Shown: piece after piece, positions 1,189 through 22,999 of the stretch
Layout: the number at the start of each line of letters is the position of its first letter
Numbering within the stretch: position 1 is the stretch's first letter
Assembly: GCA_964547385.1 (NCBI GenBank)
Contig: CAZJNB010000004.1
Span: forward strand, 1 to 24,263
Direction: 5' to 3'
Origin: an uncultured bacterium
GTDB taxonomy: Bacteria > RBG-13-66-14 > B26-G2 > WVWN01
Length of the DNA: 24,263 bases
The notes under the pieces: model-generated
Seen by the model: only the letters and a program-made list of their open reading frames with translations
What the model was told of the DNA's origin: nothing
Databases searched by the model: none
Program-made: the position numbers and the translations under genes

Positions 1189-1224
1189 ATCACATACAGT
1201 TTAGTATTAATCGTCGGTTGGTTG

Positions 1225-1249: not shown

Positions 1250-1429
1250 ATGAATAACGCTCTTATTATCGTCGTATACGCCACGCCGGCCGCGGCGGCC
1301 GCCGTGGCCTTCGCGATGATGTTCCGCCTGGGCCGGGGGGGCGGCGGCAAGGCCGGCGGCGCCGCGCGAGGAGAGCCCGTTTGCTCGGGCCGGGCCAAAG
1401 GAAATGCCCTCTTAACGGACCATCTATAA
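1250..1429 (+). CDS. Possible small membrane peptide (59 aa). It is not in the supplied ORF track because it falls below the length cutoff.
   Basis: ATG at 1250 through TAA at 1427..1429 translates to MNNALIIVVYATPAAAAAVAFAMMFRLGRGGGGKAGGAARGEPVCSGRAKGNALLTDHL. It has one hydrophobic helix followed by a Gly/Arg-rich tail. It ends 15 nt before the SHOCT gene, so it could be co-transcribed. There is no clear Shine-Dalgarno motif. Its GC3 is high, like the real genes. Confidence 0.2.
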   Translation: MNNALIIVVYATPAAAAAVAFAMMFRLGRGGGGKAGGAARGEPVCSGRAKGNALLTDHL

Positions 1430-1443
1430 TAGAGGTGAGATTA

Positions 1444-1752: not shown

Positions 1753-1975
1753 CTCGGTGCCCCGTGCGGCCGCTTCGTCTACGGCCCAGGTGATTTCAAC
1801 CTTTCGATGTCGCGTCTTCACTTGTTAATAATCGGCCGTTTTGTTAGAAAAGTTTTGTAAAATGACGAAAGGCGTTACGGCGTCGCGCGGCGGCGCGCGA
1901 GGAGAGCCGGCAGGTTTGCCGGGAAGCGCGGCGTCCGCGGAAAGGGCATAATTGCCGGGAAGGGTGGTGGAGCAA

Positions 1976-2224
1976 ATGGCTGGAGCCAAACTAAATCCGC
2001 TCGCGTTAGGGTACGCGGCCGCGATCGTCTCCGCGGTGAGTATGTTGTTGCTCGGCATATTGGGAAAGCTGGGGATTTACGCCGGCGCCGCCGAGATGAT
2101 GTCGCAATGGCATATGTTCTTTTCCTTGAGCCTGTGCGGGATAATCGCCGGTATGGTCGAAGCGGCTGTTATGGGCTTTGTGGGCGCAACCGTCTTCGGG
2201 TGGCTCTATAACAGGTTCGTCTAA
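1976..2224 (+). CDS. Small hypothetical 2-TM membrane protein (82 aa).
   Basis: ATG at 1976 is preceded by GGTGGTGGAG. The product MAGAKLNPLALGYAAAIVSAVSMLLLGILGKLGIYAGAAEMMSQWHMFFSLSLCGIIAGMVEAAVMGFVGATVFGWLYNRFV has two predicted TM helices. I do not recognise a family. The 1952 start given in the track is less likely. Confidence 0.45.
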   Translation: MAGAKLNPLALGYAAAIVSAVSMLLLGILGKLGIYAGAAEMMSQWHMFFSLSLCGIIAGMVEAAVMGFVGATVFGWLYNRFV

Positions 2225-2526
2225 GCCGAGGCCCGCGCGATAAATAAAACGCGGGCGCCGTATCATCGCACGATACCCCCGCCGGCCTCTCCGCCGGCGC
2301 CGCCGCCGACGCTCTCGGCGGCTGCCCCTCCGGCTAACGTAAGTGAGGGCGCGGCGCTGGCCGGAGGCGCCGTCGCCTAACGTCCTATCCCTTTATTTGT
2401 CATATATAATACCTTCAGGGCCCTACATCTTGGGGCTCTCGGCGTAGATACCACACTATGTTGCGTTTTCCCTTGCTAAAAACCGGCCCCTTTGTTAAAA
2501 TGGTCGCGTAATAAAGGGTTGAGGAA

Positions 2527-5500
2527 ATGCGGCTTAGCGCCATAGAAATATTCGGCTTCAAATCGTTCCCCCACCGGACGCGTATTGACTTCGGCCCGGG
2601 CATCGCCGCGGTCGTCGGCCCCAACGGCTGTGGCAAGTCGAACATCGCCGACGCGTTCCGCTGGGCGTTGGGCGAGCAGTCCGCCAAGTCGCTCCGCGGC
2701 GACGTTATGGAGGACCTCATTTTCAACGGCACGGCCGACACGCCGCCGCTCTCGTTGGCGGAGGTCTCCCTATATTTCGACGAGGTTGGCGGCCACCTTC
2801 CCCTGGACGCCGACGAGGTAGTCGTTACCCGCCGGATGTACCGGCAAGGCGAGTCCCACTGTTTCCTAAACGGCAAGCCCGTTCGCCTGAAAGATATTCG
2901 CGAGCTCTTTGCCGACACCGGCTTGGGGCGAACCTCTTACGCCGTAATGGAACAAGGGATGGTAGAGGCGATTATCCGGGCCAAAGCGGACGAACGGCGG
3001 GCGCTCTTCGAGGAAGCCGCGGGCATCAGGAACTACCGGGCGAAACGGGCCGAGGCCACGCGCAAACTCGCCGACGTCCAGCTGAACGTGGAACGGCTGG
3101 AAGACCTCCTCAGCGAATACCGGCGCCAGGCGCGCGCCCTCAAACGTCAAGCGGGCGCGGCGCGCCGCCACCACGGCCTGTTGCATAGACTGCGCGAACT
3201 CGACCTCGGCCTCGCGAAGTTGAAGTATACCGCCGGCGGCGAAAAGAAGAAAGCCGCGGTGGCCCGCCGCGACGAATTCGCCGCCGCGTACCGCGGCGCG
3301 AAATCGCGCGCCGCCAACGCCTCCGCCGAGCTCGCACGCCTCGGCGCCGAGGGCGCCGCCGCCGAGCTCGAGCTCGAGCAAAAAGAGAAAGCCCTCCTCG
3401 CGCGCCAGCGGGAACTTAAAGAGGCCGAGGCCGCGCACCAGCTAGCCGTAGAACGACACCGGTCCGTAACCGAGAACATCGCCCGCCTTCGCGCCGAGCG
3501 CGGCCGCCTGGCGGACGAGCTCGTGCACGCCGAGCAAGAAGAACGAAAGCTCGCCGGCGATAAAGAGGAATACGCCCGTCGTATAACCGAGGCGGAAAGC
3601 CGGGCCGCGCGCGGCCGAGAAGAGCTCGCCACGGCCCTCGAGCGCGAGGCCGCCCTCGCCCGCGAAGTCGAAGACGCGCGCGCCGAACAACTCCGCCGCT
3701 TCGAGAAACGGACGCGCCTCGCCAACCTCCACGCTACCGCCGCGGCCGCGCGCGAAAGCCTCGCCCGCGAACTCGCGCGGATGCGCGGCGAAGCCCAACA
3801 GGCCTCGCTCCTCTTCGACGAACGCTTGGCCTCCCAGGAGAAGGCCGGCGAGGAACTCTCCTCTCTCCGGAGCGAGCTGGCGCAATCTCGGGCCGCGGCC
3901 GAGGAGCTCACGGCTTCCGACCAACGCCTCACGGCGGCGCTCGCGGCGGCCGAGGCCGCGGCGGCCGAAGCCGCGGCCCGCTACGAAAGCGTCCGCTCCC
4001 GATTATCTTCCCTCCAAGAGCTTGCCCGCCGCTTCGAATCTTTCGGCGCCGGCGTCGCCGCGCTTATGGAGCGGGGAACGCCCGCCGGCATCGCCGGCCT
4101 CCTGGTGGACGCGTTGAAGGTGCGGGAAGGCTACGAGGCCGCGCTCGAGGCCGCGCTGGGGCCCGCCGCCGGCGCTCTCCTCGCCGCCGACTTGGCGACC
4201 GCCGCCGCTTACGGCCAACGCCTCGCGACGACGGCGAAAGGACGCGCCGCTTTCCTCGTCCCCGGCGCCGCGCGGGCCGCGGAAAGGGACTTGCCGGTCG
4301 TAGAAGGCGTCCGCGGCTGGGCGTCCGGCTTTGTAGCGGCCGGCGGCCCGTTCGGCGACGCCGTCTCCCGCCTCCTGGACAACGTCATAGTAGTCGAGGA
4401 CTTAGCCGCCCTCCGGGCGATAGCCGAGCTCTACCCGGCCGTCGCGGCCGTAACCCTCAACGGCGACCGCTGGGACGGCCGAGCGGTCTTGGTCGCCGGC
4501 GCGGCCGAGAACGCGAGCGCTACCATTCTGGGCCGTCGGGCCGAGATGGCGAAGCTCGCTACCTCCCTCCAAGAGCTTACCGCCGAAGTCAAACGCAAGA
4601 AGGCCGAGGTCGCGCGGCTCCGCATAGCACGCGAGGAACTCGCCCGCCGCAAGGACGAGAACGCCGCGCGCATAACGAAGGTCGCCGCGGCGTGTGCCAA
4701 CCTCCAAGCCGCCCTCGCGCGCGACGCGCGCGACGCCTCCAGCCAGGCCGAACGCCGGACGGTCCTCGAGCGGGAAATCGCGGGCGCGGAAGACCGCCTC
4801 GGCGACGCGTTCCGCCAAGAGGAAAACCTCGCGGGCCAACTCGCCGCTTCCGGCGCGGCGTGCGAGGAGTCCGGCCAACTCGTTACCTCCCTGGAGGAAG
4901 GACGCCGGGAAGCCCGCGCGCGCGTAGACGAGCTTCGGCGGGAGGTCGCGGAAATACGCGCCCAGGCCGCAAGCTTCCACGAGAGGTTAAACGCCGTTAC
5001 CCGCGACCGGCAGCGCCTCGCCGACTTCCGAGAGAAGGCGACGAACGAGCAGGCGCGCCGCGCCGAAAGTATAGCGCAAAAAGAAGGGGAGGAGAACGAG
5101 CTCCGCGCCGGCATCGCCGCGTGGGAGCGAGCGGTGGCGGAAAAACAAGCGGCGTTCGCCGCGGCCGACGACGACGTTAAAGACGCGCGTTCCGCCCAGA
5201 ACGAGCTCGGCGGCCGGCGCCGGGAGGCCGAGCAGGACCGCGCCGCCGCGGAAAAAGCGATGGAGGAGGTCGCCGATAGCCTCCGCGACCAGGACCTCGC
5301 GGTCGCCGAGGTGACGAGCGAGCTGAACGCCCTCGACGAGTCGTTCGCCGTAAAATACAACGTCCGCCTGAGCACCCTCGCCGCGGACCAATACGTCCTG
5401 GAGGGCGACGCCGCGACGGCGGAAGAAGAGCGGGCGGCGCTGGAACGCCGGCTCGGGAAGATGGGGGAAGTCAACTTCCGCGCGGCGCGCGAATACGAGG

Positions 5501-6221: not shown

Positions 6222-6995
6222 ATGGACCGAGACGACCGAGAGAGCCTGGGCGTATGCCAAGCGCACGAGGGCCGGCCGGCGATCGCGAAGTGCGCGCGCT
6301 GTGGCCGGTATTTATGCCCGTTGTGCGTTAGCCGGGGGGCCGAAGTTTCGGGTCAACTGGTCTGTGCCGAATGCACCGGCCTCCTCTTCGCGAGCCGCGG
6401 CCTGAGGCGCGAAGTCCCGTGGGAGAGCCGCGGCAACGCGTCCCGCCTCCGCGCCTTCTTCGCGACCTGGCGAGAGATTATCTTCGCGCCCCGTCGCTTT
6501 TTCGGTAGCCTCGACCCCAACGGCGGCGTATTTATGCCGCTGGTCTTCAGCGGCCTGTGCCTCGGCATCGGCCTCCTCGGCAGCCTGTGGGGCGTGGCGG
6601 AGACCGCGAACGCGCTGTTGGGACCGACGGGCGGGATGGTAGCCGCGGGCGTCGCCGTAGCCCTCGCGCCGATATCGTATATAATCTCCTTCGCCGCGAC
6701 GGTAGGTTTCTTGCACTTATTGGCGCGGGGCTTTGGCGGCCGCGCCGGCCTCCGCGCCACGACCCGCGTTACGGCATACGCGCAGGCCGCGGCGGTAGCC
6801 GAAGTTATCCCGGCCATCGGCAGCATCCTCTCGCTGGTCCTCCGGCTCTCGCTCTACGGTTGGGGCATCTCCGCGGTTCACGGCCTGTCCACCAAGAAGG
6901 CGCTGGTGATCTACTTCGTAATACTCACGACGGCGGTCGGGTTTTTATATTTCGCGACGCGGTTGGTGACGCCCTTTTTGCCGTTGGCGGCTTAA
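6222..6995 (+). CDS. Yip1-family multi-pass membrane protein with an N-terminal Cys4 zinc-ribbon.
   Basis: The N-terminus contains CQAH...CARCGRYLCPLC...CAEC, which is a zinc-ribbon pattern of paired CxxC motifs. About five TM helices follow, with Gly-rich segments (GLLGSLWG, GGMVAAGVAVALAPISYI, GFLHLLARGFGG) typical of Yip1/DUF1282 proteins. Confidence 0.55.
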   Translation: MDRDDRESLGVCQAHEGRPAIAKCARCGRYLCPLCVSRGAEVSGQLVCAECTGLLFASRGLRREVPWESRGNASRLRAFFATWREIIFAPRRFFGSLDPNGGVFMPLVFSGLCLGIGLLGSLWGVAETANALLGPTGGMVAAGVAVALAPISYIISFAATVGFLHLLARGFGGRAGLRATTRVTAYAQAAAVAEVIPAIGSILSLVLRLSLYGWGISAVHGLSTKKALVIYFVILTTAVGFLYFATRLVTPFLPLAA

Positions 6996-7886: not shown

Positions 7887-9490
7887 TGGCCGATAGGACA
7901 GCGCGTCGGGCGTTCGATAAGCGTATGCGGACCATAAAGGCCGGCGTGTATTCTCTGGTTATAGTGTTGGCGTTGGTCGGCGCCCTTGTCGTCTCGACGG
8001 TCCTACTGCCGCCGCAGATCGCGGCCTGGCGCTCGCGCCGCGCGGCCGAAGAAGCGCAAAAGCTCGTCGCCGAAGATAGAGTCTCCGAGGCTATGACGTT
8101 GCTCAAGCACGCCACCGCCCTCGACGCCGGAAACGAAAAGGCGTTCTTCAACTTGGCGGTGCTCGAGCTCGCGGTGAACGGCGACCCCGCCGCCGCCGCG
8201 GACAACTTCCGCCGCGCCGCGGACATCGACCGCGACTTCGGCCGCGCCTTCTACAATTTGGGCGTCGTCCAACTATTCTATCTTCACAAACAACGACTGG
8301 CCCTCGAGAACTTAAAGCGGGCCGTAGCGCTCGAGCCGGCGTACGCGCCGGCGCACGCCGCGCTCGGGCTGGCGCGGGAGGCCCTGGGGAAATACGCCGC
8401 GGCCCGCGACGCCTACGACCGTTACTTAGAACTCGAGGCCGACGGGACGTGGGCGGGACTGGTGAAACAACACCGGGCCGCTATCGGCGGCCTTCCCGCC
8501 GCCGACGAGCTCGCGGCGAAGATCTCGGCCGAGGACGACGTCTTCGAGCTCGTCGCCGTCGGCGACATCAGCTTAGCGCGGGGCGTGAACGTCGACCTCT
8601 ATACCGGCCGCTCCGAAAGTCCCCTCCGCTACGTAGCGCCGCTCATAAGCCGCGCCGCGGTCGCGTTCGGTAACTTAGAATCGCCGCTCACGAAACGGGC
8701 GCCGCGAGCCCCGACTAAAGGGCCGCGCGGCGGCTCGATATATCTAAAAGGCAACCCGGACTACGCCTTCCTCTTGACCGAAGCCGGCTTCGACGTGCTA
8801 TCCCTTGCGAACAACCACATTATGGATTACGGCCCCCAGGGCCTCGACGATACTATTTATTATTTGGACCAAGAGGAAATCAAACACTGCGGCGCGGGCG
8901 AGAACCTCGCCCGGGCGTCGGCGCCGGCGGAAGTGGACCTCGACGGCTATATCATCCGCTTCATCGCGTTCTCGGGCGTCGAACCCGCGTCCTATTTCGC
9001 GGGCCCCGGCAAACCCGGCGCCGCGGCCCTGACCGAGAGCGCGGTCGTGAGCGCGATAGGCCGAGCCAAGAAAGACGCCAACTTGGTGGTCGTCTCTCTC
9101 CACTGGGGCGAGGAATCTATGGCCTATCCCTCCTCCGAGCAGCGGCGGCTCGCCCGGCGCTTCGCGGACGCCGGCGCGGACCTAATCTTGGGCCATCACC
9201 CTCACGTCGTCCAGGGCGTCGAATCCTACGGAAGCTCCGTAATAGCGTACAGCTTGGGGAACTTCCTCTTCGATTCGCGTTACGCCGCGCGCCATTACTC
9301 CACCCTTTTGACGGTAGAAGTGTCGCGGAGCAAGGGTATCCTGGGCTTCCGGCTTATCCCCATTTATATCAAGGGAACCGAGCCGGTAACGGCGGCGGAC
9401 GGCTCTATGGCCGAGCTTATGGATTTCGCGCTGGTGAGCGCCGCGGGGCGGCGGACGCCCGTTACGCCGCCGGCCCGGCGGGAGAAATGA
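7886..9490 (+). CDS. TM-anchored TPR-repeat protein fused to a CapA/PgsA-type (PGA_cap) metallophosphatase-like domain. Capsule/poly-gamma-glutamate biosynthesis family.
   Basis: The ATG at 7886 overlaps the upstream stop codon (ATGA) and is preceded by GGGAGGAA. The protein has one TM helix (VYSLVIVLALVGALVVSTVLL) and TPR-like helices (AFFNLAVLEL, AFYNLGVVQL, AHAALGLAREALGKY). The CapA blocks follow: DISLARGVN, GNLESPLT, LSLANNHIMDYGPQGL, VVVSLHWGEE, GADLILGHHPHVVQGVE, IAYSLGNFLFD. The track start at 7865 is a TTG upstream extension. Confidence 0.8.
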   Translation: MADRTARRAFDKRMRTIKAGVYSLVIVLALVGALVVSTVLLPPQIAAWRSRRAAEEAQKLVAEDRVSEAMTLLKHATALDAGNEKAFFNLAVLELAVNGDPAAAADNFRRAADIDRDFGRAFYNLGVVQLFYLHKQRLALENLKRAVALEPAYAPAHAALGLAREALGKYAAARDAYDRYLELEADGTWAGLVKQHRAAIGGLPAADELAAKISAEDDVFELVAVGDISLARGVNVDLYTGRSESPLRYVAPLISRAAVAFGNLESPLTKRAPRAPTKGPRGGSIYLKGNPDYAFLLTEAGFDVLSLANNHIMDYGPQGLDDTIYYLDQEEIKHCGAGENLARASAPAEVDLDGYIIRFIAFSGVEPASYFAGPGKPGAAALTESAVVSAIGRAKKDANLVVVSLHWGEESMAYPSSEQRRLARRFADAGADLILGHHPHVVQGVESYGSSVIAYSLGNFLFDSRYAARHYSTLLTVEVSRSKGILGFRLIPIYIKGTEPVTAADGSMAELMDFALVSAAGRRTPVTPPARREK

Positions 9491-15156: not shown

Positions 15157-15178
15157 AAGCGGCCCCGGCGGGCCGCTT
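15157..15178. terminator. Bidirectional intrinsic terminator between convergent genes: AAGCGGCCC-CGGC-GGGCCGCTT.
   Basis: A perfect 9-bp stem with a 4-nt loop. It is followed on the plus strand by TTTTAATTT, and on the minus strand by (revcomp) GTTTTATATGTT. It lies 43 nt after the M16 stop codon and abuts the stop codon of the minus-strand gene at 15179. Confidence 0.6.
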
Positions 15179-15691
15179 TTAATTTACCTCGTATCCGCTC
15201 AGCGTCATCGTCACCCGCGGCCAGTCGGCGAACTTGAACGATACCTTGAGGAGCTTGCCGGCGAGCTCGCCCTCCCGGCCCACGTAGGCATTTATCGTCG
15301 CGGCCTTGTTACCGGCCCAGCCGGTAACGTCGCCCTCGACGTGGACGCCGGCGAAGGTCCGGGCCGGGAACGTCGTGAGCTTCACTTGGCCTACCGCCGT
15401 CGCCCGCGCGCGCACGTGATAGACCTTGCCGCGGAGCGGGTAGTCGAAGCCGAGCTCGTCGCCCTTCGCGAGCCGCCGGCCTAGGAAGAAGTTCATCAAG
15501 GCGATGATCTTCTCGGCGCGCGCCGGGTCCACCGGCACGACGCGCCGCTCGAAGAGCGAGAGGAAGTGAACGGTCCCGCGCGCGCCGTCCACGACCATCA
15601 ACGAGCGGCCGGCGTTCTCGAGCGTAACCCGGCCGCCGGCGTCCTCCCGCCAGGCCACCTCGTCGTCGGCGACGAAGAAGAGCGCCAACAC
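15179..15691 (-). CDS. Hypothetical protein at the end of the rSAM operon, possibly a secreted LolA-/DUF3108-like beta-barrel. The start codon is unresolved.
   Basis: The track ORF begins at a GTG (15691) and gives a product with no signal peptide. The same frame is open all the way back to the upstream gene's stop codon (15896..15898) and encodes ...KALRTAVALTVLAAAAAGASGDAALTYKVTLSY..., which looks like a signal peptide. There is no ATG, GTG or TTG in that stretch. The body (…GFDYPLRGKVYHVRARATAVGQVKLTTFPARTFAGVHVEGDVTGWAGNKAATINAYVGREGELAGKLLKVSFKF…) is a beta-rich domain. The family assignment is tentative. Confidence 0.5.
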   Translation of the reverse strand: MLALFFVADDEVAWREDAGGRVTLENAGRSLMVVDGARGTVHFLSLFERRVVPVDPARAEKIIALMNFFLGRRLAKGDELGFDYPLRGKVYHVRARATAVGQVKLTTFPARTFAGVHVEGDVTGWAGNKAATINAYVGREGELAGKLLKVSFKFADWPRVTMTLSGYEVN

Positions 15692-15895
15692 GACCGCGGC
15701 CAGAAACTCGCGCGCGTTCTGATAGGAGAGCGTTACTTTATACGTGAGAGCGGCGTCGCCGCTAGCGCCGGCCGCGGCCGCGGCGAGGACCGTTAGGGCG
15801 ACAGCTGTTCGTAAGGCCTTGACGTCGTTTCCCCCGAGGGCGCGGCCCGAGCCGTTCGCGCGCGGCCGGCCCTCTGCTTGCGCGCGCGTCGCCGC

Positions 15896-17338
15896 TTAGA
15901 CCTGGGTGCCGTGGGGCGTGAACTCTTTCTTGAACAGCGACGTCAGGAGGAAGGCGAAGCCGCCGGCGAGGAGGACCTTGAGGTCCGTCCAGCTCCGGAT
16001 CATCTTCAGGCGTTTCCACATATAACCAGGGCGGCGGTAGAAGCGCTTGAACGCCAGGCGCCGGACCTCCTGGAGCTGTTCGCGGGTCATCGTGAAGGGG
16101 ACGAAGGCGCACCCCTCGAACGTGTAGTCGAGGACGTTGTCCGTCGGTATCCGGCCGTATCGCTCGTGGTGCTCGTAGAGCTCGGCGCCCGGGAACGGCG
16201 CCAGCGCGTGGAAGTTGACGATGTCGGCGTCGATATCGATCGCGAATTGTATCGACGCCAGCGCGTCCTCGTAGGTCTCGCCGGGCGCGCCGAAGATGAA
16301 GGGCGTAACGGTCCACAGGCCCGCGTCGCGCGCCCACGCCACCGCCTGGCGGTTCTGCTCGACGGTCGTCCCTTTCCCCAACGCGTCGAGGCTCGACTGG
16401 ACGCCGGACTCGATGCCGTAGAGAATTCCCCAGAACTTCGCCCTCTTCATCTTATGGAGGATGTCGCGGTCGATGTTATCGACGCGCGCCGAGCCGTAGA
16501 ACGTCAGGTCGTAGTCGCGCTCGATAATGCCGTCGAGGATGGCGTGAATCCGCTCCTTGTCGTAGACCAGGTTGTCGTCGAAGAAGCGAATTTCCTTGAC
16601 GCCGTAAGTTGTGTAGATATGGTCTATCTCTTCGAGGACCTTCGCGGCGCTACGGGAGCGCCACTCGCCCTCGGCGTTTAACTGCCAACAGAAGATGCAT
16701 TCGCCGTTACAGCCGCGGGACGTATACATATACATCGCCGGCAGGCGGCGGTAGCTCCCCAGCGGCGGGACGTAGCGTCCAACGTCGTCCAGGAGGTCGC
16801 GCGCCGGCAAGGGCAGGGCGTCGATGTCCTCGATGCGCGGCCGCGGCGGATTGAGGTGCACCTCGCCGTCGTCGCGGTAGGCGATGCCCTCGACGCCGGC
16901 GAGGTCGCCGCCCGCCGCCAACGTCCGCGCGAGGACGTCGCCCGTCACTTCGCCCTCGCCGACCGTAACGCTGTCGGCGTACGGCGCCTTGCGGAGGACC
17001 CGGTCCTTCCAGCCGCTCGCGAGCGGCCCGCCGACGTTGACGTGGACGCCCGGCATCTCGCGGCGGATGCGCTCGGCGAGCCGGTTCATCGACGCCCATA
17101 AAAACGTCGTAAGGTACATCCCCACCATCGCCGGCCCGAACGCCTTGAGCTCGGCCATCATCTCGTCGGTGGTCATAAAGCCGCCGTCGAAGAAGCGGAC
17201 GTCGTGGCCCCGTTCGCGGAGCGCCGCGGCGACGGACAACAGCCCGAGCGGATGCCACCGGCCGCCGACGAACAGGCCCAAATTGCCGGTGAAGACTTCC
17301 TTAACGGTCCAGGGCGGAAAACAGAGCGCGATTTTCAT
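15896..17338 (-). CDS. Cobalamin (B12)-binding domain radical SAM enzyme (class B rSAM), paralog 1.
   Basis: The N-terminal B12-binding Rossmann-like domain reads MKIALCFPPW...WHPLGLLSVAAALRERGHDVRFFDG. The radical SAM cluster motif is SRGCNGECIFC (CxxxCxxC). The shared C-terminal region includes YGIESG...LGKGTTV...PFPGAELY...FYRRPGYMWKRL. The C-terminus is hydrophobic (LLAGGFAFLLTSLF). AAGG lies about 8 nt upstream of the ATG. Confidence 0.85.
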   Translation of the reverse strand: MKIALCFPPWTVKEVFTGNLGLFVGGRWHPLGLLSVAAALRERGHDVRFFDGGFMTTDEMMAELKAFGPAMVGMYLTTFLWASMNRLAERIRREMPGVHVNVGGPLASGWKDRVLRKAPYADSVTVGEGEVTGDVLARTLAAGGDLAGVEGIAYRDDGEVHLNPPRPRIEDIDALPLPARDLLDDVGRYVPPLGSYRRLPAMYMYTSRGCNGECIFCWQLNAEGEWRSRSAAKVLEEIDHIYTTYGVKEIRFFDDNLVYDKERIHAILDGIIERDYDLTFYGSARVDNIDRDILHKMKRAKFWGILYGIESGVQSSLDALGKGTTVEQNRQAVAWARDAGLWTVTPFIFGAPGETYEDALASIQFAIDIDADIVNFHALAPFPGAELYEHHERYGRIPTDNVLDYTFEGCAFVPFTMTREQLQEVRRLAFKRFYRRPGYMWKRLKMIRSWTDLKVLLAGGFAFLLTSLFKKEFTPHGTQV

Positions 17339-17411: not shown

Positions 17412-18668
17412 CTACCTCCAGATCTTCCGGGCGATGCTCACTAATAATATGGTGTAGGAGACGATAGCGAACGAACCCTCCAGCCCGGCGGCGACCTTCG
17501 CCCAACCGTAGGGCTCGTACGACGTAAAGCCCAGCTTCGTGAGCGTAACGAACGAGAAGTAGAGGCACCGTTGGAGGCTGGCCCAGCTCAGGTCCGCGAG
17601 CGGCGCGACGCTGCCGCCCGGGTCCAGATAGCTTACGACGCCGACGCCGAGGCCGCCGAAGAACGGCAACAGGTAGTAATAGAGGGAGAAGAGGGCCCAC
17701 GCGCCGATAAGGGCGTAGGCTACCCGCCACGGCTTCGTCCCGTAGCCCGCGTAGAAGTCCAGGAAGACGAAGTCGAGCGCGTGCCGGAAGAGCGCCCACG
17801 GCCGCCAGTCCTTGCGGCCGCGCAGCCGGCCGCGGCGCCGGGCGACCATCTCCCGGTAGAGCGCCGTCTCCGCCAACCCCGAGCGGCCGAACTGACGGAA
17901 GTTTAATTTGAGCTCCGCGTAGACCTCCGCGGCGTCGTCGAACTTGCCCTCCTCGTCGTTTTTCACAATAAGGTCGTCCGGCAGGACCGCGCGTCCTAAA
18001 TCCGTCTCCCGGAAAAGGGCGCCGTAGAGGTCGGCGCGCCTTAGGTCCGCGCCGCCGACGTCGCAGTTCTCCAACCGGGCGCCGACAAACGCCGCGCCGG
18101 CGCAGTCCGCCCGCCGCAGGGAGACGCGCCGGAGGCCGGCGCCGGCCAGGTCCGCGTCTTTCAGGCACGCCCCGGCCAAGTCCGTATCCTCGACTTCCGC
18201 GTGGCTAAGCCGGGCGCCGGCGAAGTCGCTCTGCGTCAGCGTCGTCTCTCGGAAGCGCGCGCGCGAGAGGTCCGCGCCGCGCAGGTTCGCGAACGGCATA
18301 TCGGCGCCCGAAAAATCGGCGTGGGCGAGCCTCGCGCCGCGGAGCGTCGCCCCCTCCATCTCGGCGTCGGTGAAGTCCGCGCCCGCGAAGTCGCCGCCGG
18401 CGAAGTCCGCGCCCCGTAGGTTCGCGCCGGCGAAGTTCGGCCGCGGGCCCGCGACCGAGACGAGCCTCGCGCCCTGTAAGTTTAACCCCGCCAAGCCCGC
18501 GAGCGACGCCGCTTTCGCCCGCAGACTCTCCACGTAGGCGTCCTGGTCGGGGAGATGCGCCCAACAGTGGCGCGCAAAACTCAGCGCGCTCGCGGTGCAC
18601 TCGGCGTGGCTACACGCCGGCCGCTCCGACCAGTGTTCGTCCCGCATCTCGTCGTTTGCCTCAGCCAT
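17412..18668 (-). CDS. Pentapeptide-repeat protein fused to a C-terminal 2-TM potassium-channel-like pore domain whose selectivity filter is non-canonical.
   Basis: The start is the ATG at 18668, which overlaps the upstream TAA by 1 nt (TAATG) and has GGGGGGAG upstream. The track start at 18767 has no support. The N-terminus is Cys/His-rich (CSHAEC...HCWAH). About 200 aa of A(D/N)LxG-type pentapeptide repeats follow (GANLRGADFAGGDFAGADFTDAEMEGATLRGARLAHADFSGADM...). Then come TM1, a pore helix with filter-like CLYFSFVTLTKLGFTSYEP (canonical channels read ...FSFVTLTTVGYGD), and TM2. Confidence 0.75.
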   Translation of the reverse strand: MAEANDEMRDEHWSERPACSHAECTASALSFARHCWAHLPDQDAYVESLRAKAASLAGLAGLNLQGARLVSVAGPRPNFAGANLRGADFAGGDFAGADFTDAEMEGATLRGARLAHADFSGADMPFANLRGADLSRARFRETTLTQSDFAGARLSHAEVEDTDLAGACLKDADLAGAGLRRVSLRRADCAGAAFVGARLENCDVGGADLRRADLYGALFRETDLGRAVLPDDLIVKNDEEGKFDDAAEVYAELKLNFRQFGRSGLAETALYREMVARRRGRLRGRKDWRPWALFRHALDFVFLDFYAGYGTKPWRVAYALIGAWALFSLYYYLLPFFGGLGVGVVSYLDPGGSVAPLADLSWASLQRCLYFSFVTLTKLGFTSYEPYGWAKVAAGLEGSFAIVSYTILLVSIARKIWR

Positions 18669-20104
18669 TACGCTCCCCCCAAGACGTAACGCCGCACTAC
18701 GTCCGCGCCGGCCTTCGCGGCCCGCGCCAGGTCCGCCGGCGAGCGGACCCGCCGCAGACGCCGCCACACGTAGCCGGGCCGAAGGTAGAATTCCCGGTAA
18801 GCCTTCCTTATGTAATACTCAAGCAGAGCCGCGTCGCCGTAGACCGCGCGCCGCGCGTCGTAGCCGGCGAAGCCGTCTCCCAACGTCGCCTTCACTTGTT
18901 CATAGAACTCGGTCCCCGGGTAGGGCGTCGCGACGTTGAAGGAGGCGAACGCCGCGTCCAACTCCTTCGCGAGCTCGACCGTCGCGCGCATATCCTCGGC
19001 CTCCTCGCCCAGGTTGCCGAACATAAAGAACGCCGCGGCCTCCAGGCCGACGCGCGCCGTCATCTCGAACGCCCGCCGCGCCTGCGCCACCGTCGTCCCC
19101 TTTCCCATCCGCGCCAACACTTTCGGCGAGCCGGACTCGACGCCGTAGATAACCAGATAACAACCGGCGCGCCGAAGCGCCGCCAACATCTCCTCGTCCA
19201 CGGTGTCGACCCGCGACATACACATCCAGGAGAACGCCAGGCCGGCGCGCTCGATGCGCCCGCAGATGTCCATCACCCGCCGCTTGCCGATGGTGAACGT
19301 GTCGTCCCAAAAGCCGACTTGGCGCACGCCTTCCTCCTCCACCATCTCGCGCAATTCCGCGAGGACGTCGCCGGCGGAACGGAACCTTATCTTCCGGCCG
19401 TAATAGGCGCCCGTCGAACAGTAATTACACCGATAGGGGCAACCCCGCGACGTCAATATTATATCGAAACGACCGGAGCGTATAAACGGCGGCTCGTAGC
19501 GGTAGGGGCGAAAGAAACGCCGCGCCGGGTGGGGTAGCTCGTCCAACGACGCCAAGAGCGGCCGCGCCGGGTTGTGGACTACGCCGCCGTCCTCCCGCCG
19601 GCTCAGGCCGGCTACGGCCGCGAGGGGAATCTCCCCGGCGACCGCGCGCGCGAGCTCCGCGCACGTCGCCTCCGGCTCGCCGCGGATGACGAAGTCGGCG
19701 CCCGGCGCCGCAAAGCCGTCGGCCGGCCGCGCCGTAACGTGGGTCCCCATCACGGCCGTCCGCGTCGTGGGCGAAACCTCCTTCGCCGCGGCGAGAAACG
19801 CCAGGTCGCGCGCTACCGTGGAGGTCCCGGCGGCGACGTATAATAGGTCCGGCTTCGCCGCGGCCACCGCGGCCAATATCTCCTCGGGCGGATTTCGGCC
19901 CGCGACCGCGTCGACCAAATCCACCTCGGCGCCGGCCCACCGTTCCACCGCGGCGGCGCAATACGCCAAGCCGAGCGGCGGCACGACGTAGTCCGTCTTC
20001 GTGAAGATACCCGCGCACCGCGCCAGGACCGCGTCCGTCTGCGTCGCGAAGTCGCCCGGCCCGAGCGGCGGCACCAGGAAGAGGGCTGTGAGGGTGCCCG
20101 TCAT
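18668..20104 (-). CDS. Cobalamin (B12)-binding domain radical SAM enzyme (class B rSAM), paralog 2.
   Basis: The B12-binding domain includes PPLGLAYCAAAVERWAGAEVDLVD. The cluster motif is SRGCPYRCNYC (CxxxCxxC). It is collinear with paralog 1 at YGVESG...MGKGTTV...PYPGTEFY...FYLRPGYVWRRLRRVRS. The ATG at 20104 overlaps the upstream TGA by 4 nt (ATGA). Confidence 0.85.
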   Translation of the reverse strand: MTGTLTALFLVPPLGPGDFATQTDAVLARCAGIFTKTDYVVPPLGLAYCAAAVERWAGAEVDLVDAVAGRNPPEEILAAVAAAKPDLLYVAAGTSTVARDLAFLAAAKEVSPTTRTAVMGTHVTARPADGFAAPGADFVIRGEPEATCAELARAVAGEIPLAAVAGLSRREDGGVVHNPARPLLASLDELPHPARRFFRPYRYEPPFIRSGRFDIILTSRGCPYRCNYCSTGAYYGRKIRFRSAGDVLAELREMVEEEGVRQVGFWDDTFTIGKRRVMDICGRIERAGLAFSWMCMSRVDTVDEEMLAALRRAGCYLVIYGVESGSPKVLARMGKGTTVAQARRAFEMTARVGLEAAAFFMFGNLGEEAEDMRATVELAKELDAAFASFNVATPYPGTEFYEQVKATLGDGFAGYDARRAVYGDAALLEYYIRKAYREFYLRPGYVWRRLRRVRSPADLARAAKAGADVVRRYVLGGA

Positions 20105-20814
20105 TTCTCCAATTTATATATCACCGCGCCGCCGGGGACGAAGTTGAAGAGGAACGCGTCCCAGGCGGTGAGCCATATCCGGACGGCGTTCGCCGCCCGG
20201 GCCCACGGACGCCGTAATAACTCCTCTTTGTTTTCACGCCGCCCGCCCGAGCCGCCTGCGGCCCGCCGCCGGACCAGCAGAGCCGCCAACGGCTGGAACA
20301 GGTGCTTGAAGTAGCGGCGCCTTCTTATCGTTAGGCCCGCGGCCGTGAACGCGGCCTTCCACTCCCGCGGCGTGAGCCGGCTGTGGTGGCCGTCCGCCAG
20401 GTCGTCCGCGTCCAGGCGCGGTTGGCCCGGCGCCGGCCTAAGCCATCGTCTTAGATAGACGCCGAAACAGGACGAGTTGACCAGCGCTACCGCGCCCGGC
20501 TTCATCACCCGGGCCGCCTCGGCGAGGGCGACGGCGACGTCTCCGGGCGCGAGGTGCTCCAATACGTCGGAAAATAATACCACGTCCGCGGCGCCGCCGC
20601 GAAGCGGGAGTCGCCGGGCATCGCCTACGACCGCGGCGAGGCCGCGCGCCCGGGCAACGGCGAGCGCCGAGGCAACGCAGTCCACGACGACCCTGCGCCC
20701 TGCGCCGGGCCACCGCGCCGCGAAGTACCCTTCGCCGCCGCCTACGTCGATGAGCGTATCGTAGTCCCCCGGGCCCGCGAAACGCCTAAGCGTCCGCCAT
20801 ACGAACCACCCCAA
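20101..20814 (-). CDS. Class I SAM-dependent methyltransferase (Methyltransf_11/25-like). The 5' end is uncertain.
   Basis: Motif I is LIDVGGGEGYF. The acidic beta2 end is VVVDC. Motif II is VVLFSDVLEHL. Motif III is MKPGAVALVN. The only canonical start is the TTG at 20814, which has no Shine-Dalgarno motif. The frame stays open upstream to 20937, and that upstream stretch has an AAGGAA but no ATG, GTG or TTG. Confidence 0.75.
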   Translation of the reverse strand: MGWFVWRTLRRFAGPGDYDTLIDVGGGEGYFAARWPGAGRRVVVDCVASALAVARARGLAAVVGDARRLPLRGGAADVVLFSDVLEHLAPGDVAVALAEAARVMKPGAVALVNSSCFGVYLRRWLRPAPGQPRLDADDLADGHHSRLTPREWKAAFTAAGLTIRRRRYFKHLFQPLAALLVRRRAAGGSGGRRENKEELLRRPWARAANAVRIWLTAWDAFLFNFVPGGAVIYKLEK

Positions 20815-20977: not shown

Positions 20978-22999
20978 ATGGCGATAGCATTCGAGCCCCT
21001 ATCCTATTGGTGGCTAGCGGCGGTGGCGGCGGCGCTGGCCGCCGCGGCCGCGGCCTACGGCGCCCTCCGCCTCCGCGGGTTGGTCGCGGCCCGCTCGTGG
21101 GTACTATTCCTACTCTTACGGCTCGGCGCCGTCGCCGCGGTAATACTTTACGTGCTCGGGCCCGCGGTCGAGTTCCGCGGCGCGGCCCGCGTCGGTCCGC
21201 CGGTCGCGGTCCTGGTGGACTCGTCGGCGAGTATGGACTTCGCGGCCGGCGGCCAACCGCGCCTCGCCGGGGCGCTGGCCGTCGCGCGCGGCGTCGCCGC
21301 CGCGGTGCAGGCGAACGGCGGGTCCTATCGGTTCTACGACTTCGCCGCGGCGCGCCGGCCCTGGGGCGAATACGTCCCCGACGAGGCCGCGGTGAAGGAA
21401 GGCCCGCGCGCCCGCACCGACGCGGGCGGCGCCCTCGCCGAGTTGGCCGCGCGTTTCGGCCCGGACGGCCTGGCGGCCGTCGTCGTATTGAGCGACGGCG
21501 CTTGGGACGCGCCGCCCGCGTCCGAAGGCCTACCTCCTTGCTTGACGATGGCGGTGGGCGTCGAGCCGCCGCCCGGCCGCGTCTTCATCACCGGCGTGGA
21601 CGCGCCCGCGACGGTTACCGCCGGAACTTCGTTCGACGTCCGCGTCCGATATTTCTCGACGCTCGGCGCCGGCGATACGGCCGCGGTTTCCGTCGCCGAA
21701 GGGGAGACGGCCGAACGAACGTACCGCCTGGCCGTCGGCCCGGGCCGGGGCGAGGTCCACGCGAAGGTGAAAGCGACCGGCCCCGGCGACCGATTCTACC
21801 GGCTCCGCGTCGCGCCGGGGGCGGGCGAGCGCTGGTTTCATACGCGTGTTCTGGCGAGGCCGCTCCGTATATGGTATTGGGAAATGGCGGGCGACGCCGA
21901 CTTCGCGTTCCTGCGGCGCGCGCTGGCGACGAACGCCGACTTCGACTTCGGCTACCGCCTGGACGTGGGCGACCGGAGCATATCCTCCGGCCGGCCCGCG
22001 CCCGCGGAAAGCGACATCGTCGTCGTAGGCAATCCGCGCGCGGCCAAGTTGACCGGTGCGGCCGGCGACGCGTTGGAACGCGTCGTCGCCGCGGGCGGCG
22101 GCCTCCTCTTCGTCATCACCGCGCGGCCGGTGGACCTCGCGGCGTTGACGTCCGGCGCTCTCGGGAGACTATTACCGGTGCGCGACGTCACCCAAGCAAA
22201 AGAAGTGCCGGGCGGGCCTTTGACGGCGACATCGCTCCCGGGCGCCGTAACGGTGGGGGCGGCGGCGCCGCGCGCGAGCCACGTCTGGCGCTTGGGCGTT
22301 CTGAAGGAGGGAGCGACGCCGGCGTGGCAGGCGCCGGACGGCACGCCCGCGCTGGTCTTTATGCCCTACGGCTTGGGGCGGGTGGCGCTGTTATCGGCGG
22401 GCGGTCTGTTCAAGTGGCAGCTCCGCGGCGGCGACGACGAAGCCGAGCTGGCCGCGGCGCTCGTCCTCTCGCTCTACCAGGAAGGGGCGCGGGCGCTCGC
22501 CGTAAGTCGCCGCATCGTCGCGCCGGGGGAGACGGTGGAGGTAACGTGTCGCGCCGCGGCGGAGCCGACGGCCTCGCTCGCCGGCCCGGGCGGCAACGTC
22601 CGCCCGCTGGCCCTCACGAACGTGGGTGCGGACTTGTGGGCCGGCGACGCCGAGTTGCCGCGGACGGGCCGCTACGAAGTTACGGCCCGGCTCCCGACCC
22701 CGAGCGGCGTCGACGTCGAGAAGGCGGCGATTATGGCGACGCCTTCCGCGGCGGAATACGCGGCGTTCCGGGCGCGGCCGGCGCCGCTACGGGCGTTGGC
22801 CGCGGCGACGGGCGGCCGCTATTTCGATGAGGGCGACGGCGCCGCGTTGGCCGCGGCGGCGGCCGACATCGTGCGGGCCGCGCCGCGGGAACGGACGCGA
22901 ACGCGCCGGCGGCTTTGGCCCGCGTGGCTCGCGTTTCCGGCGGCGCTGCTCTTCTTGCTGGGAGAGTGGATACTGAGACGGCGCGCCGGCCTACGGTAA
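20978..22999 (+). CDS. BatA-like membrane protein: N-terminal double-TM segment, a vWA (MIDAS DxSxS) domain, a ThuA/DJ-1-like (DUF4159-type) domain and a C-terminal TM anchor.
   Basis: The N-terminus is MAIAFEPLSYWWLAAVAAALAAAAAAYGALRL...VLFLLLRLGAVAAVILYVL (two TM helices). The MIDAS motif is VAVLVDSSASMDF. The middle region (DIVVVGNPRAAKLTGAAGDALERVVAAGGGLLFVI) resembles a class-I glutamine-amidotransferase-like fold. A terminal TM helix follows (WLAFPAALLFLLGEWIL). The track ORF 21007..22830 is an off-frame Arg/Gly-rich artefact of this same DNA. Confidence 0.7.
   Translation: MAIAFEPLSYWWLAAVAAALAAAAAAYGALRLRGLVAARSWVLFLLLRLGAVAAVILYVLGPAVEFRGAARVGPPVAVLVDSSASMDFAAGGQPRLAGALAVARGVAAAVQANGGSYRFYDFAAARRPWGEYVPDEAAVKEGPRARTDAGGALAELAARFGPDGLAAVVVLSDGAWDAPPASEGLPPCLTMAVGVEPPPGRVFITGVDAPATVTAGTSFDVRVRYFSTLGAGDTAAVSVAEGETAERTYRLAVGPGRGEVHAKVKATGPGDRFYRLRVAPGAGERWFHTRVLARPLRIWYWEMAGDADFAFLRRALATNADFDFGYRLDVGDRSISSGRPAPAESDIVVVGNPRAAKLTGAAGDALERVVAAGGGLLFVITARPVDLAALTSGALGRLLPVRDVTQAKEVPGGPLTATSLPGAVTVGAAAPRASHVWRLGVLKEGATPAWQAPDGTPALVFMPYGLGRVALLSAGGLFKWQLRGGDDEAELAAALVLSLYQEGARALAVSRRIVAPGETVEVTCRAAAEPTASLAGPGGNVRPLALTNVGADLWAGDAELPRTGRYEVTARLPTPSGVDVEKAAIMATPSAAEYAAFRARPAPLRALAAATGGRYFDEGDGAALAAAAADIVRAAPRERTRTRRRLWPAWLAFPAALLFLLGEWILRRRAGLR

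What the first reader, a model, noticed from the sequence alone, without database searches (positions are those of the whole stretch)
17412..18668. Pentapeptide-repeat domain fused to a K+-channel-like 2-TM pore with a degenerate selectivity filter
The C-terminal 120 aa have the TM1, pore-helix, filter and TM2 layout of KcsA-type channels. The pore-helix sequence CLYFSFVTLT aligns residue for residue with the canonical ...FSFVTLTT. Where the signature TVGYGD should be, the sequence reads KLGFTS. Both glycines of the GYG motif and the acidic residue are changed, so K+ selectivity, and possibly conduction, are probably lost. The cytoplasmic part is about 200 aa of pentapeptide repeats, which form a right-handed quadrilateral beta-helix, preceded by a Cys/His-rich N-terminus (CSHAEC...HCWAH) that could bind a metal. 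The result is a channel-like membrane anchor with a large beta-helical cytosolic domain, encoded between two radical SAM genes. It could be a gated pore, a substrate conduit or a scaffold.
Basis: partly seen in the sequence, partly recalled or inferred. Interest (0 to 1): 0.6.

Follow-up and report, generated by a model that had tools for sequence, protein, structure and literature searches.

The report
Pentapeptide-repeat channel with degenerate filter
This gene encodes a membrane protein that joins a cytoplasmic beta-helix to a potassium-channel-type pore which has lost the potassium-selectivity motif, a divergent member of a large, almost unstudied family whose only characterised relative is the phage-defence channel HalA.

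Summary
Window 17412-18668 (minus strand) is a 418-aa gene. It encodes an N-terminal Cys/His knuckle, about 34 pentapeptide repeats (Pfam E 1.8e-46), a helical linker, and a TM1 / pore-helix / loop / TM2 module.

The filter reads TKLGFTS where TTLGYGD is expected. The pore helix, filter and TM2 are the most strongly constrained part of the gene, so this is a repurposed pore, not a decaying one.

The triad methyltransferase / B12-radical-SAM / this gene, with overlapping stop and start codons, is conserved in three lineages (45-68% identity), including Zixiibacteriota MAGs.

Most likely it is a HalA-like tetrameric gated pore that is not K+-selective and works with the two enzymes. A pore-dead membrane scaffold is the main rival. 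Verdict: new variant of a known kind, moderate interest.

The parts
17412..18668 (-). Complete gene, 418 aa plus stop: pentapeptide-repeat / 2-TM P-loop channel-like protein
   Evidence: ORF list and sequence. The identical 418-aa gene is called on two public contigs.
18549..18632 (-). N-terminal Cys/His knuckle, residues ~13-40 (HW-ERPAC19-x4-C24-x10-C35-W-x-H38-LPD), a probable Zn site
   Evidence: C19, C24, C35 and H38 are conserved in all full-length orthologues. A similar C..C..C[IF][FW]H motif occurs in at least 36 of 138 family representatives. There is a weak Pfam Zf_WRKY19 hit. Metal binding is inferred, not shown.
17964..18488 (-). Pentapeptide-repeat right-handed beta-helix, residues 61-235 (about 34 repeats, about 8.5 coils, net charge -6)
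   Evidence: Pfam Pentapeptide E 1.8e-46. PDB sequence hits to pentapeptide-repeat proteins. AF2 pLDDT 95-98 with 5-residue strand periodicity. Foldseek hits to MfpA, Qnr and HetL. Repeat register shown.
17739..17963 (-). Cytoplasmic helical linker, residues 236-310: a TPR-like helical hairpin (243-259, 263-284), an Arg-rich stretch, a pre-TM helix (290-306) and the family motif AGYGTKPWR
17649..17732 (-). TM1 (outer helix), residues 313-340
   Evidence: AF2 helix and hydropathy peak.
17538..17585 (-). Pore helix, residues 362-377 (SLQRCLYFSFVTLT)
   Evidence: AF2 helix 362-377. It aligns to the family consensus LYFSxVTFT and to K+ channel pore helices.
17520..17540 (-). Degenerate selectivity-filter position, residues 377-383: TKLGFTS in place of TTLGYGD
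   Evidence: DNA reads ACG AAG CTG GGC TTT ACG TCG. Family alignment. Subfamily pattern T[LI]T[KRA][LV][GS]F[TS]x followed by YEP[YH]GWAK, of which YEP and GWAK are invariant. Low pN.
17418..17504 (-). TM2 (inner helix), residues 389-417, ending in the family C-terminal motif ARKIWR. The family hinge Gly (position 401) is Ala here.
   Evidence: AF2, alignments, hydropathy.
18668..20104 (-). Upstream B12-binding radical SAM gene (rSAM1, 478 aa). Its stop overlaps the channel gene's start. Part of the conserved triad.
   Evidence: Pfam B12-binding plus Radical_SAM. It is below every NCBIfam cut-off; the best hit is HpnJ at 209 of 577 bits. Synteny.
20101..20814 (-). Class I SAM-dependent methyltransferase (237 aa), first gene of the operon. 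It overlaps the rSAM1 start. Part of the conserved triad.
   Evidence: Pfam Methyltransf_11/25/23. Synteny.
15896..17338 (-). Downstream B12-binding radical SAM gene (rSAM2, 480 aa, 33% identical to rSAM1). Present only in the Zixiibacteriota-type lineage.
15179..15691 (-). 170-aa protein with no family match, last gene of the operon in the Zixiibacteriota-type lineage
   Evidence: No Pfam, NCBIfam or PADLOC hit. Conserved at 55-60% identity in syntenic loci.
15157..15178 (.). GC-rich hairpin that looks like a bidirectional terminator. It closes the minus-strand operon and the convergent M16 peptidase gene.
   Evidence: Consensus scan. This is a pattern match only.

Best explanation
**What it is.** The gene encodes a divergent member of the family of pentapeptide-repeat (PRP) proteins fused to a 2-TM P-loop channel. 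This is the architecture of the Hailong anti-phage effector HalA.

**Assembly (inferred from the fold).**
- Four subunits assemble through the TM1 / pore-helix / TM2 module into a membrane pore.
- The four cytoplasmic beta-helices, with their N-terminal Cys/His knuckles and TPR-like linkers, form a crown under the pore.

**The pore.**
- The K+-selectivity signature has been replaced: TTLGYGD has become TKLGFTS.
- The replacement is kept under strong purifying selection.
- The pore is therefore almost certainly not K+-selective.
- I infer that it is either a non-selective pore or a pore that opens only when triggered, of the CNG, NaK or HalA kind.
- I also infer that its opening is controlled by what binds the cytoplasmic crown.

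**Genomic partners.**
- The gene is co-transcribed and translationally coupled with a SAM methyltransferase and a B12-dependent radical SAM enzyme.
- More distant relatives of that radical SAM enzyme sit in envelope-glycan clusters.
- The ligand or partner of the crown is therefore most likely these enzymes or their membrane-associated product.

**Shown versus inferred.**
- Shown: domain architecture, homology, fold, filter substitution, selective constraint and operon conservation.
- Inferred: tetramer, conduction properties, gating, and the link to enzyme chemistry.
For: **Architecture and homology**
- Pfam Pentapeptide E 1.8e-46; Ion_trans_2 21.4 bits.
- The profile of the C-terminal 190 aa finds 695 representatives at E<=1e-3. 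The top hits cover the whole module and carry TTLGYGD.
- 102 of 112 scanned members hit Ion_trans_2, and 80 of 112 hit Pentapeptide_3.
- The family profile hits K2P, NaK, KirBac, KcsA and Kv channels in the PDB.

**Fold**
- AF2 pLDDT is 88.9 for the full length and 89.7 for the C-terminal module, with TM1, re-entrant pore helix and TM2.
- All top Foldseek hits of the C-terminal module are K+ channels or HalA.
- HalA (9nyi_A) is the only PDB chain aligned across both domains: 354 columns, E 1e-6.
- 29 of 112 family members hit the NCBIfam HalA model, several of them end to end.

**HalA function (from the literature)**
- HalA is a homotetrameric channel with a cytoplasmic crown. It is held closed by an enzyme-made ligand (review PMC13434031).
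- It is described as pentapeptide repeats plus a K-channel domain (PMC13586616).

**Selective constraint**
- pN is 0.05-0.10 in the pore helix, filter and TM2, against 0.20-0.25 elsewhere. pS is 0.4-0.76 throughout.
- YEP and GWAK after the filter are invariant in the subfamily.

**Operon**
- The stop and start codons overlap.
- The triad MTase / rSAM1 / this gene is kept in three lineages at 45-68% identity with different flanks.
Against: - No conduction, oligomerisation or ligand data exist. Only monomers could be modelled.
- Replacing the second filter glycine is a classic way to kill K+ channels.
- A Lys at the KcsA-T75 position would put four positive charges at the inner mouth of the filter. 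A non-conducting pore is therefore quite possible.
- The TM2 hinge Gly is Ala in this lineage.
- Sequence similarity to HalA itself is very weak: 16 bits against a cut-off of 250.
- No HalB-like nucleotidyltransferase is nearby.
- Gene order among the close orthologues is syntenic over more than 10 kb. Part of the operon conservation therefore reflects relatedness and not selection.
- The radical SAM enzymes match no characterised equivalog, so their chemistry is unknown.
Confidence: 0.55

Rival explanations
1. Pore-dead membrane scaffold. The channel fold is kept only as a tetrameric membrane anchor. It holds a cytoplasmic beta-helix platform that recruits the soluble methyltransferase and B12-radical-SAM enzymes to the membrane. 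There they modify a lipid-linked or envelope-glycan substrate. No ions pass.
For: - The filter lacks the second Gly and the Asp, and has Lys at the T75-equivalent position. The hinge Gly is Ala.
- Outgroup homologues of rSAM1 (44-53% identity) lie in clusters with PMT_2/GT-C, GT2, GT87 and GT9 glycosyltransferases.
- In two of the three outgroup loci examined the next gene nearly abuts or overlaps the radical SAM gene. In one it is a multi-pass membrane protein, in the slot that this gene occupies here.
- The MTase weakly resembles the oligosaccharide methyltransferase MftM.
- Pentapeptide-repeat proteins are typically protein- or DNA-interaction surfaces (established knowledge for MfpA and Qnr).
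Against: - The pore helix, filter and TM2 are the most constrained part of the protein, and the residues after the filter are invariant. That is more than a plain anchor would need, although tetramer packing could also explain it.
- Other families with non-GYG filters, such as CNG and NaK, do conduct (established knowledge).
- No interaction data exist.
Confidence: 0.28
2. Anti-phage defence system of the Hailong type. The channel is an abortive-infection effector. The radical SAM and methyltransferase enzymes make, or sense, the signal that keeps it closed.
For: - HalA is the only characterised relative.
- One canonical family member lies next to an nSTAND2/HEPN protein.
- rSAM1 and rSAM2 give weak PADLOC hits to the candidate system PDC-M51A.
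Against: - The channel protein has no PADLOC hit.
- There is no HalB-like nucleotidyltransferase.
- The locus sits at the same chromosomal place, among housekeeping genes (SMC, PSP1, Band7, M16 peptidase, enolase), in most of the Zixiibacteriota-type contigs sampled. It is not in a variable island and has no mobile-element genes.
- The PADLOC radical SAM hits are generic domain similarity.
Confidence: 0.08
3. An ordinary K+-selective channel (KcsA/MthK type) with a regulatory cytoplasmic domain.
For: The fold and the pore-helix sequence are K+-channel-like. Relatives carry TTLGYGD.
Against: The defining T-x-G-[YF]-G-D signature is not met: the sequence is TKLGFTS. The deviation is conserved in all subfamily members.
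Confidence: 0.03
4. A decaying or non-functional gene remnant of a channel, or an annotation artefact of a GC-rich ORF.
For: The Ion_trans_2 score is sub-threshold. The window has many spurious long ORFs because of its high GC content.
Against: - Full-length intact orthologues are found in at least 15 independent contigs.
- pN is well below pS in every region.
- The AF2 model has high confidence.
Confidence: 0.01

Closest known systems
HalA, effector of the Hailong anti-phage system (PDB 9nyi; NCBIfam NF051894; Tan et al. 2025, as summarised in PMC13434031)
   Same: - The overall architecture matches: cytoplasmic pentapeptide-repeat domain, helical linker and C-terminal 2-TM P-loop pore.
- It is the only solved chain that aligns over both domains (Foldseek 354 columns).
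- 29 of 112 members of the wider family hit the HalA model.
   Different: - Sequence similarity is marginal: 16 bits against a cut-off of 250.
- There is no adjacent HalB nucleotidyltransferase. The partners here are a methyltransferase and B12-radical-SAM enzymes.
- The genomic setting is housekeeping and not a defence island.
- HalA's filter sequence could not be retrieved for comparison.
- Oligo-dA binding is untested.
Uncharacterised PRP + Ion_trans_2 proteins, annotated 'pentapeptide repeat-containing protein' (bacteria and haloarchaea)
   Same: The domain order and family motifs match: the N-terminal C..C..C-x-[FW]-H knuckle, the pentapeptide repeats, YR.LK..F..G.Y..A..YYRE, CGYGE.P.R before TM1, and a C-terminal F.RK..R.
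   Different: - 127 of 148 representatives keep G[YFL]G. This subfamily has TKLGFTS followed by an invariant YEP.GWAK.
- It has a longer TM1-to-pore-helix loop with a conserved Y.DPGG motif.
- It has a conserved MTase / B12-rSAM operon, which was not seen for the three other family members checked.
KcsA / MthK / KirBac 2-TM K+ channels (Pfam Ion_trans_2)
   Different: The K+ signature is absent (K for T75, F for Y78, T for G79, S for D80). The Pfam score is 1 bit below threshold. The cytoplasmic domain is a beta-helix rather than an RCK or Kir domain.
Non-selective P-loop channels with shortened or altered filters (NaK TVGDGN; CNG TIGET; HCN CIGYG). Comparison from established knowledge.
   Different: There is no sequence-level relationship beyond the superfamily and no cyclic-nucleotide-binding domain. 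A Lys precedes the filter Leu. Conduction is untested.
Soluble pentapeptide-repeat proteins (MfpA, Qnr, AlbG, HetL, Rfr)
   Same: The right-handed quadrilateral beta-helix of A(D/N)LXX repeats matches.
   Different: Those are soluble and often dimeric DNA mimics or of unknown function. Here the helix is tethered to a membrane pore and preceded by a Cys/His knuckle.

Membership tests
Pentapeptide repeat family (Pfam PF00805 / PF13599 / PF13576) | Tandem A(D/N)LXX pentapeptides scoring above the Pfam gathering threshold | tested here: met
   PF00805 scores 155.7 bits (cut-off 20.2), PF13599 77.7 (38) and PF13576 62.4 (27). About 34 repeats are in register.
Pentapeptide repeat family (Pfam PF00805 / PF13599 / PF13576) | Right-handed quadrilateral beta-helix fold | tested here: met
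   AF2 pLDDT is 95-98 over residues 81-235 with 5-residue periodicity. Foldseek E is 1e-12 to 1e-8 to MfpA, QnrB1, HetL and designed solenoids. This is a prediction, not an experiment.
Tetrameric P-loop cation channel pore domain (Pfam Ion_trans_2, PF07885) | Score at or above the Pfam gathering threshold | tested here: not met
   21.4 bits against 22.5; E 2.3e-4; residues 362-417. Homology is supported instead by the profile search, whose hits are 102 of 112 Ion_trans_2-positive.
Tetrameric P-loop cation channel pore domain (Pfam Ion_trans_2, PF07885) | TM1, re-entrant pore helix, filter loop and TM2 topology | tested here: met
Tetrameric P-loop cation channel pore domain (Pfam Ion_trans_2, PF07885) | Homotetramer with a central ion pathway; ion conduction | not testable with these tools
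   Only monomer prediction is available, and no coordinates are returned.
K+-selective channels (KcsA / MthK / Kir type) | Signature filter T-[VIL]-G-[YF]-G-[DEN] | tested here: not met
   The aligned residues are K378-L379-G380-F381-T382-S383. The deviation is conserved in the subfamily.
HalA, Hailong effector (NCBIfam NF051894 equivalog) | Score at or above the 250-bit equivalog cut-off | tested here: not met
   16.2 bits, E 0.0046, residues 306-418 only.
HalA, Hailong effector (NCBIfam NF051894 equivalog) | Pentapeptide-repeat crown, linker and 2-TM pore architecture | tested here: met
HalA, Hailong effector (NCBIfam NF051894 equivalog) | Two-gene operon with the nucleotidyltransferase HalB | tested here: not met
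   The neighbours are a methyltransferase, two B12-radical-SAM genes and a 170-aa unknown. No NTase is present in any of the syntenic loci.
HalA, Hailong effector (NCBIfam NF051894 equivalog) | Gating by oligodeoxyadenylate; anti-phage activity | not testable with these tools
   Needs biochemistry and phage assays.
PRP + 2-TM channel fusion family (uncharacterised; defined here by the profile) | C-terminal module of about 180 aa: TPR-like hairpin motif, [CA]GYG.xPxR before TM1, pore helix LYFS..T, and a C-terminal RK..R tail | tested here: met
   Alignment A5. Hits cover profile positions ~10-189 at E 1e-17 to 1e-7.
PRP + 2-TM channel fusion family (uncharacterised; defined here by the profile) | N-terminal pentapeptide repeats preceded by a Cys/His knuckle | tested here: met
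   80 of 112 members have Pentapeptide_3. At least 36 of 138 have the C..C..C-x-x-H motif. The window protein has both.

The most novel reading that the evidence does not exclude
The conserved triad is a housekeeping counterpart of the Hailong logic. In this reading, the methyltransferase and the B12-radical-SAM enzyme make or modify a membrane-associated metabolite, or post-translationally modify the protein itself. The pentapeptide-repeat crown reads that product and gates a re-engineered, non-K+ pore. This would couple envelope-precursor chemistry directly to membrane permeability or potential. Alternatively, the former ion pathway has been converted into a conduit for that product. Either reading would be a new function for the K+-channel fold.
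Probability: 0.12. Interest if true: 0.75.

Novelty: new variant of a known kind. Interest (0 to 1): 0.42.

Why it matters
Pentapeptide-repeat / P-loop channel fusions are numerous: hundreds of 50%-identity clusters across bacteria and archaea. Apart from HalA (2025), none has been studied.

This subfamily shows that the pore's selectivity signature can be rewritten and then held under strong constraint. It also shows that such a channel can be fixed in a non-defence operon with cobalamin-dependent radical SAM chemistry.

If the pore conducts, it is a natural example of how far a K+ filter can drift and still function. If it does not, it is a case of a channel fold reused as a membrane scaffold.

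Either way it gives a concrete three-gene system in which to ask what the beta-helical crowns of this family sense.

Tried and rejected
- **Close-homologue search.** A word-indexed search with the C-terminal 190 aa gave only 4 close hits. The exhaustive profile search was needed.
- **PDB sequence search.** A single-sequence search with the pore module found nothing. Only family profiles reach the K+ channels.
- **HalA filter.** I tried five ways to get the HalA sequence and read its filter, and all failed:
  - a PDB search with a linker-only query;
  - a full-family profile;
  - tblastn of family members against plasmids;
  - tblastn of family members against phages;
  - the primary paper, which is not held.
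  The Aeromonas hit that I followed is an ordinary family member next to an exonuclease III-like gene, not Hailong.
- **PADLOC.** No hit for the channel. The radical SAM and MTase hits are generic, so I rejected them as evidence for defence.
- **RiPP reading** (B12-rSAM plus M16 peptidase). There is no candidate precursor ORF in the only sizeable gap, 15692-15895. The M16 gene is not part of the conserved core. I set this reading aside.
- **Alternative start.** A longer 451-aa ORF starting at a GTG at 18767 was rejected. Orthologues and public gene calls start at the ATG at 18668.
- **RNA genes.** Rfam found nothing. ARAGORN made only an implausible call inside a coding gene.
- **Literature.** Searches for the fusion and for Zixibacteria with B12 radical SAM gave nothing beyond Hailong.
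Full report
**1. The observation**

Window 17412-18668 (minus strand) is a 418-aa ORF. Its ATG overlaps the TAA of the upstream gene (TAATG). The same 418-aa product is called on a JGI metagenome contig and on a Logan assembly. A longer reading from a GTG at 18767 is not supported by orthologues.

Pfam gives:
- Pentapeptide at E 1.8e-46;
- Ion_trans_2 at 21.4 bits, 1 bit under the 22.5 cut-off, over residues 362-417;
- a faint zinc-finger hit at residues 19-38.

The repeats run from residue 61 to 235, about 34 pentapeptides.

**2. Is the C-terminus really a channel pore?**

A word-indexed search found only four close relatives. I therefore aligned the C-terminal 190 aa with two of them and searched 1.84 billion cluster representatives exhaustively.
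- 695 representatives score E<=1e-3.
- Nearly all of the top 150 match the whole module (profile positions ~10-189) at their own C-terminus.
- They read ...LYFSxxTFTTLGYGD...F.RK..R.
- Of 112 scanned, 102 hit Ion_trans_2, 80 hit Pentapeptide_3 and 23 hit Ion_trans.
- A profile of the module hits K2P, NaK, KirBac, KcsA and Kv channels in the PDB at E 1e-9 to 1e-7.

AlphaFold2 gives a confident full-length model (pLDDT 88.9, pTM 0.82):

| Element | Residues |
|---|---|
| Beta-helix | 61-235 |
| Helical hairpin | 243-284 |
| Pre-TM helix | 290-306 |
| TM1 | 313-340 |
| Pore helix | 362-377 |
| TM2 | 389-417 |

The C-terminal module alone models at pLDDT 89.7.
- Its Foldseek hits are exclusively K+ channels and HalA.

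**3. The filter**

In the family alignment the window residues F371-S-F-V-T-L-T377-K-L-G380-F-T382-S383 align with F-S-V-V-T-F-T-T-L-G-Y-G-D. The changes are:
- T to K at the KcsA-T75 position;
- Y to F;
- the second Gly to Thr;
- Asp to Ser.

Three orthologues do have Ser there.

The subfamily pattern is T[LI]T[KRA][LV][GS]F[TS]x, followed by YEP[YH]GWAK in which YEP and GWAK are invariant. The family's near-invariant TM2 Gly (position 401) is Ala in this lineage.

This is not decay. Against seven orthologues, pN is 0.05-0.10 in the pore helix, filter and TM2. It is 0.20-0.25 in the rest of the protein. pS is 0.4-0.76 everywhere.

Within the wider family, 127 of 148 representatives keep G[YFL]G. 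At least two other lineages have lost it. One ends ...FSRKVIR and reads FTAGFT..., again with G-F-T.

From established knowledge:
- the second glycine and the T75 hydroxyl are required for the four-site K+ filter;
- channels with G-x-T or altered filters (CNG, NaK) are non-selective.

K+ selectivity is therefore almost certainly gone. Whether anything is conducted cannot be decided here.

**4. The rest of the protein**

C19, C24, C35 and H38 (C-x4-C-x10-C-x2-H) are conserved in every full-length orthologue, including the 48%-identical P0005. A related C..C..C[IF][FW]H motif opens at least 36 of 138 family representatives. It also opens an Aeromonas member that I looked at. A structural zinc site is a reasonable inference.

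Positive charges flank the cytoplasmic ends of both TM helices. This places the beta-helix in the cytoplasm, as in K+ channels.

**5. Closest characterised relative**

- NCBIfam's HalA model is hit weakly by this protein: 16 bits against a cut-off of 250.
- It is hit by 29 of 112 family members, some end to end.

According to a review of Tan et al. [quoted passage not shown] Oligo-dA made by HalB binds between subunits and keeps it closed. Loss of the ligand depolarises the cell.

Another paper describes the Hailong effector as pentapeptide repeats plus a K-channel domain (PMC13586616).

HalA therefore shows what this architecture can do. This protein is not a HalA orthologue, and it has no HalB.

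**6. Genomic context**

The minus-strand operon runs in this order:
1. methyltransferase (20101-20814);
2. B12-radical-SAM rSAM1 (18668-20104);
3. this gene;
4. B12-radical-SAM rSAM2 (15896-17338);
5. a 170-aa unknown (15179-15691);
6. a hairpin terminator (15157-15178).

Neither radical SAM protein reaches any NCBIfam equivalog cut-off. The best hits are HpnJ and BchE at about a third of threshold.

Orthologous loci come from genome and metagenome collections and include two MAGs labelled Candidatus Zixiibacteriota. They share the channel at 66-68% identity and rSAM1/2 at 76-82%. They also share the whole neighbourhood. That conservation partly reflects relatedness.

Three more divergent loci are more telling: L006, L022 and L023.
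- Their channel is 45-48% identical and their rSAM1 61-69%.
- They keep exactly MTase / rSAM1 / channel.
- They lack rSAM2 and the 170-aa gene.
- In the two with enough flanking sequence (L006, L023) the channel gene is followed by an aminotransferase gene.

The core is therefore the triad.

Outgroup homologues of rSAM1 (44-53% identity; PVC group, Chlamydiota and others) lie among PMT_2/GT-C, GT2, GT87 and GT9 glycosyltransferase genes. In two of the three loci examined the next gene nearly abuts or overlaps the radical SAM gene. In one it encodes a multi-pass membrane protein. This points to envelope-glycan or lipid-linked chemistry for this radical SAM clade.

Three other family members that I checked have unrelated neighbours, one of them defence-like (nSTAND2/HEPN).

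PADLOC does not recognise the channel. The locus sits among housekeeping genes (SMC, PSP1, Band7, M16 peptidase).

**7. Interpretation**

*Best supported (0.55 overall).* My confidence in the identity is about 0.9 and in the mechanism about 0.4. This is a HalA-type tetrameric membrane pore that has exchanged K+ selectivity for another, conserved pore chemistry. It is controlled through its cytoplasmic crown and works with the co-translated methyltransferase and B12-radical-SAM pair.

*Main rival (0.28).* The pore is dead, and the fold serves as a tetrameric anchor that brings the enzymes to a membrane-bound substrate. The filter substitutions and the envelope-glycan context of rSAM1 relatives favour this reading. 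The especially strong constraint on the filter and TM2 argues for a functional pore, but tetramer packing could also explain it.

*Minor rivals.* A Hailong-like defence role (0.08) is disfavoured by the context. A K+-selective channel (0.03) and a pseudogene (0.01) are contradicted by the sequence and by pN/pS.

**8. Novelty and score**

The fusion is not new. It is a large family with a solved member. What is new is a constrained non-GYG filter variant in a conserved operon with cobalamin radical SAM chemistry. I rate it a new variant of a known kind, interest 0.42.

The most novel reading not excluded is that enzyme-made product gates the pore, or that the pore has become a conduit for that product. 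I give this probability 0.12. It would deserve an interest of about 0.75.

Noticed in passing
L031-L035 (loci of rSAM1 outgroup homologues P0178, P0182, P0195): Relatives of the upstream radical SAM gene at 44-53% identity sit in clusters of PMT_2/GT-C, GT2, GT87 and GT9 glycosyltransferases. In two of the three loci the next gene nearly abuts or overlaps the radical SAM gene. In L034 that gene encodes a 9-TM protein, in the slot the channel-like gene occupies in the window.
   Followed up: partly
Family representatives P0068, P0076, P0082, P0092, P0120, P0136 (C-terminus ...FSRKVIR): A second lineage of the same family has also lost GYG. Several of its members read FTAGFT[AG][ED], the same G-F-T as the window. 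This suggests recurrent or shared drift to this filter type.
   Followed up: no
Family-wide; e.g. L013 2770-3732 (Aeromonas caviae), P0006, P0048: Many family members open with a C..C..C[IF][FW]H motif before the pentapeptide repeats (at least 36 of 138). The putative zinc knuckle is therefore a family feature, not a peculiarity of this gene.
   Followed up: partly
L029 388-1965: One canonical-filter family member (P0010) lies directly after a gene with ATPase_2/nSTAND2 and HEPN_Swt1 domains, a defence-like pairing distinct from Hailong.
   Followed up: no
L005 989-3698; L025 577-2932: The downstream radical SAM gene (rSAM2) is tandemly duplicated in two related contigs. It is absent downstream of the channel gene in L018, L006, L022 and L023.
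   Followed up: partly
window 15179-15691 (-): A 170-aa protein with no Pfam, NCBIfam or PADLOC match and no predicted TM segment. It is conserved at 55-60% identity as the last gene of the operon in the Zixiibacteriota-type loci.
   Followed up: no
window 20978-22999 (+): A 673-aa protein, divergently transcribed from the operon. It has two N-terminal and one C-terminal hydrophobic segments and no family match. It is conserved at 52-56% identity next to the operon in most of the close loci sampled.
   Followed up: no
window 15157-15178: A 9-bp GC-rich hairpin with T-runs on both strands lies between the convergent M16 peptidase gene and the operon's last gene. It is probably a bidirectional terminator.
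   Followed up: no
window 6222-6995 (+): A 257-aa protein that combines a B-box-type zinc finger hit with a Yip1 membrane domain, an unusual pairing for a bacterium.
   Followed up: no
window 8964-9043 (-): ARAGORN calls a tRNA of undetermined type with a 4-base anticodon inside the PGA_cap/TPR gene. This is most likely a false positive, and Rfam finds nothing in the window.
   Followed up: no
window 1-3000: GC content is lower (0.57-0.61) than in the rest of the window (0.64-0.74). I did not examine this further.
   Followed up: no
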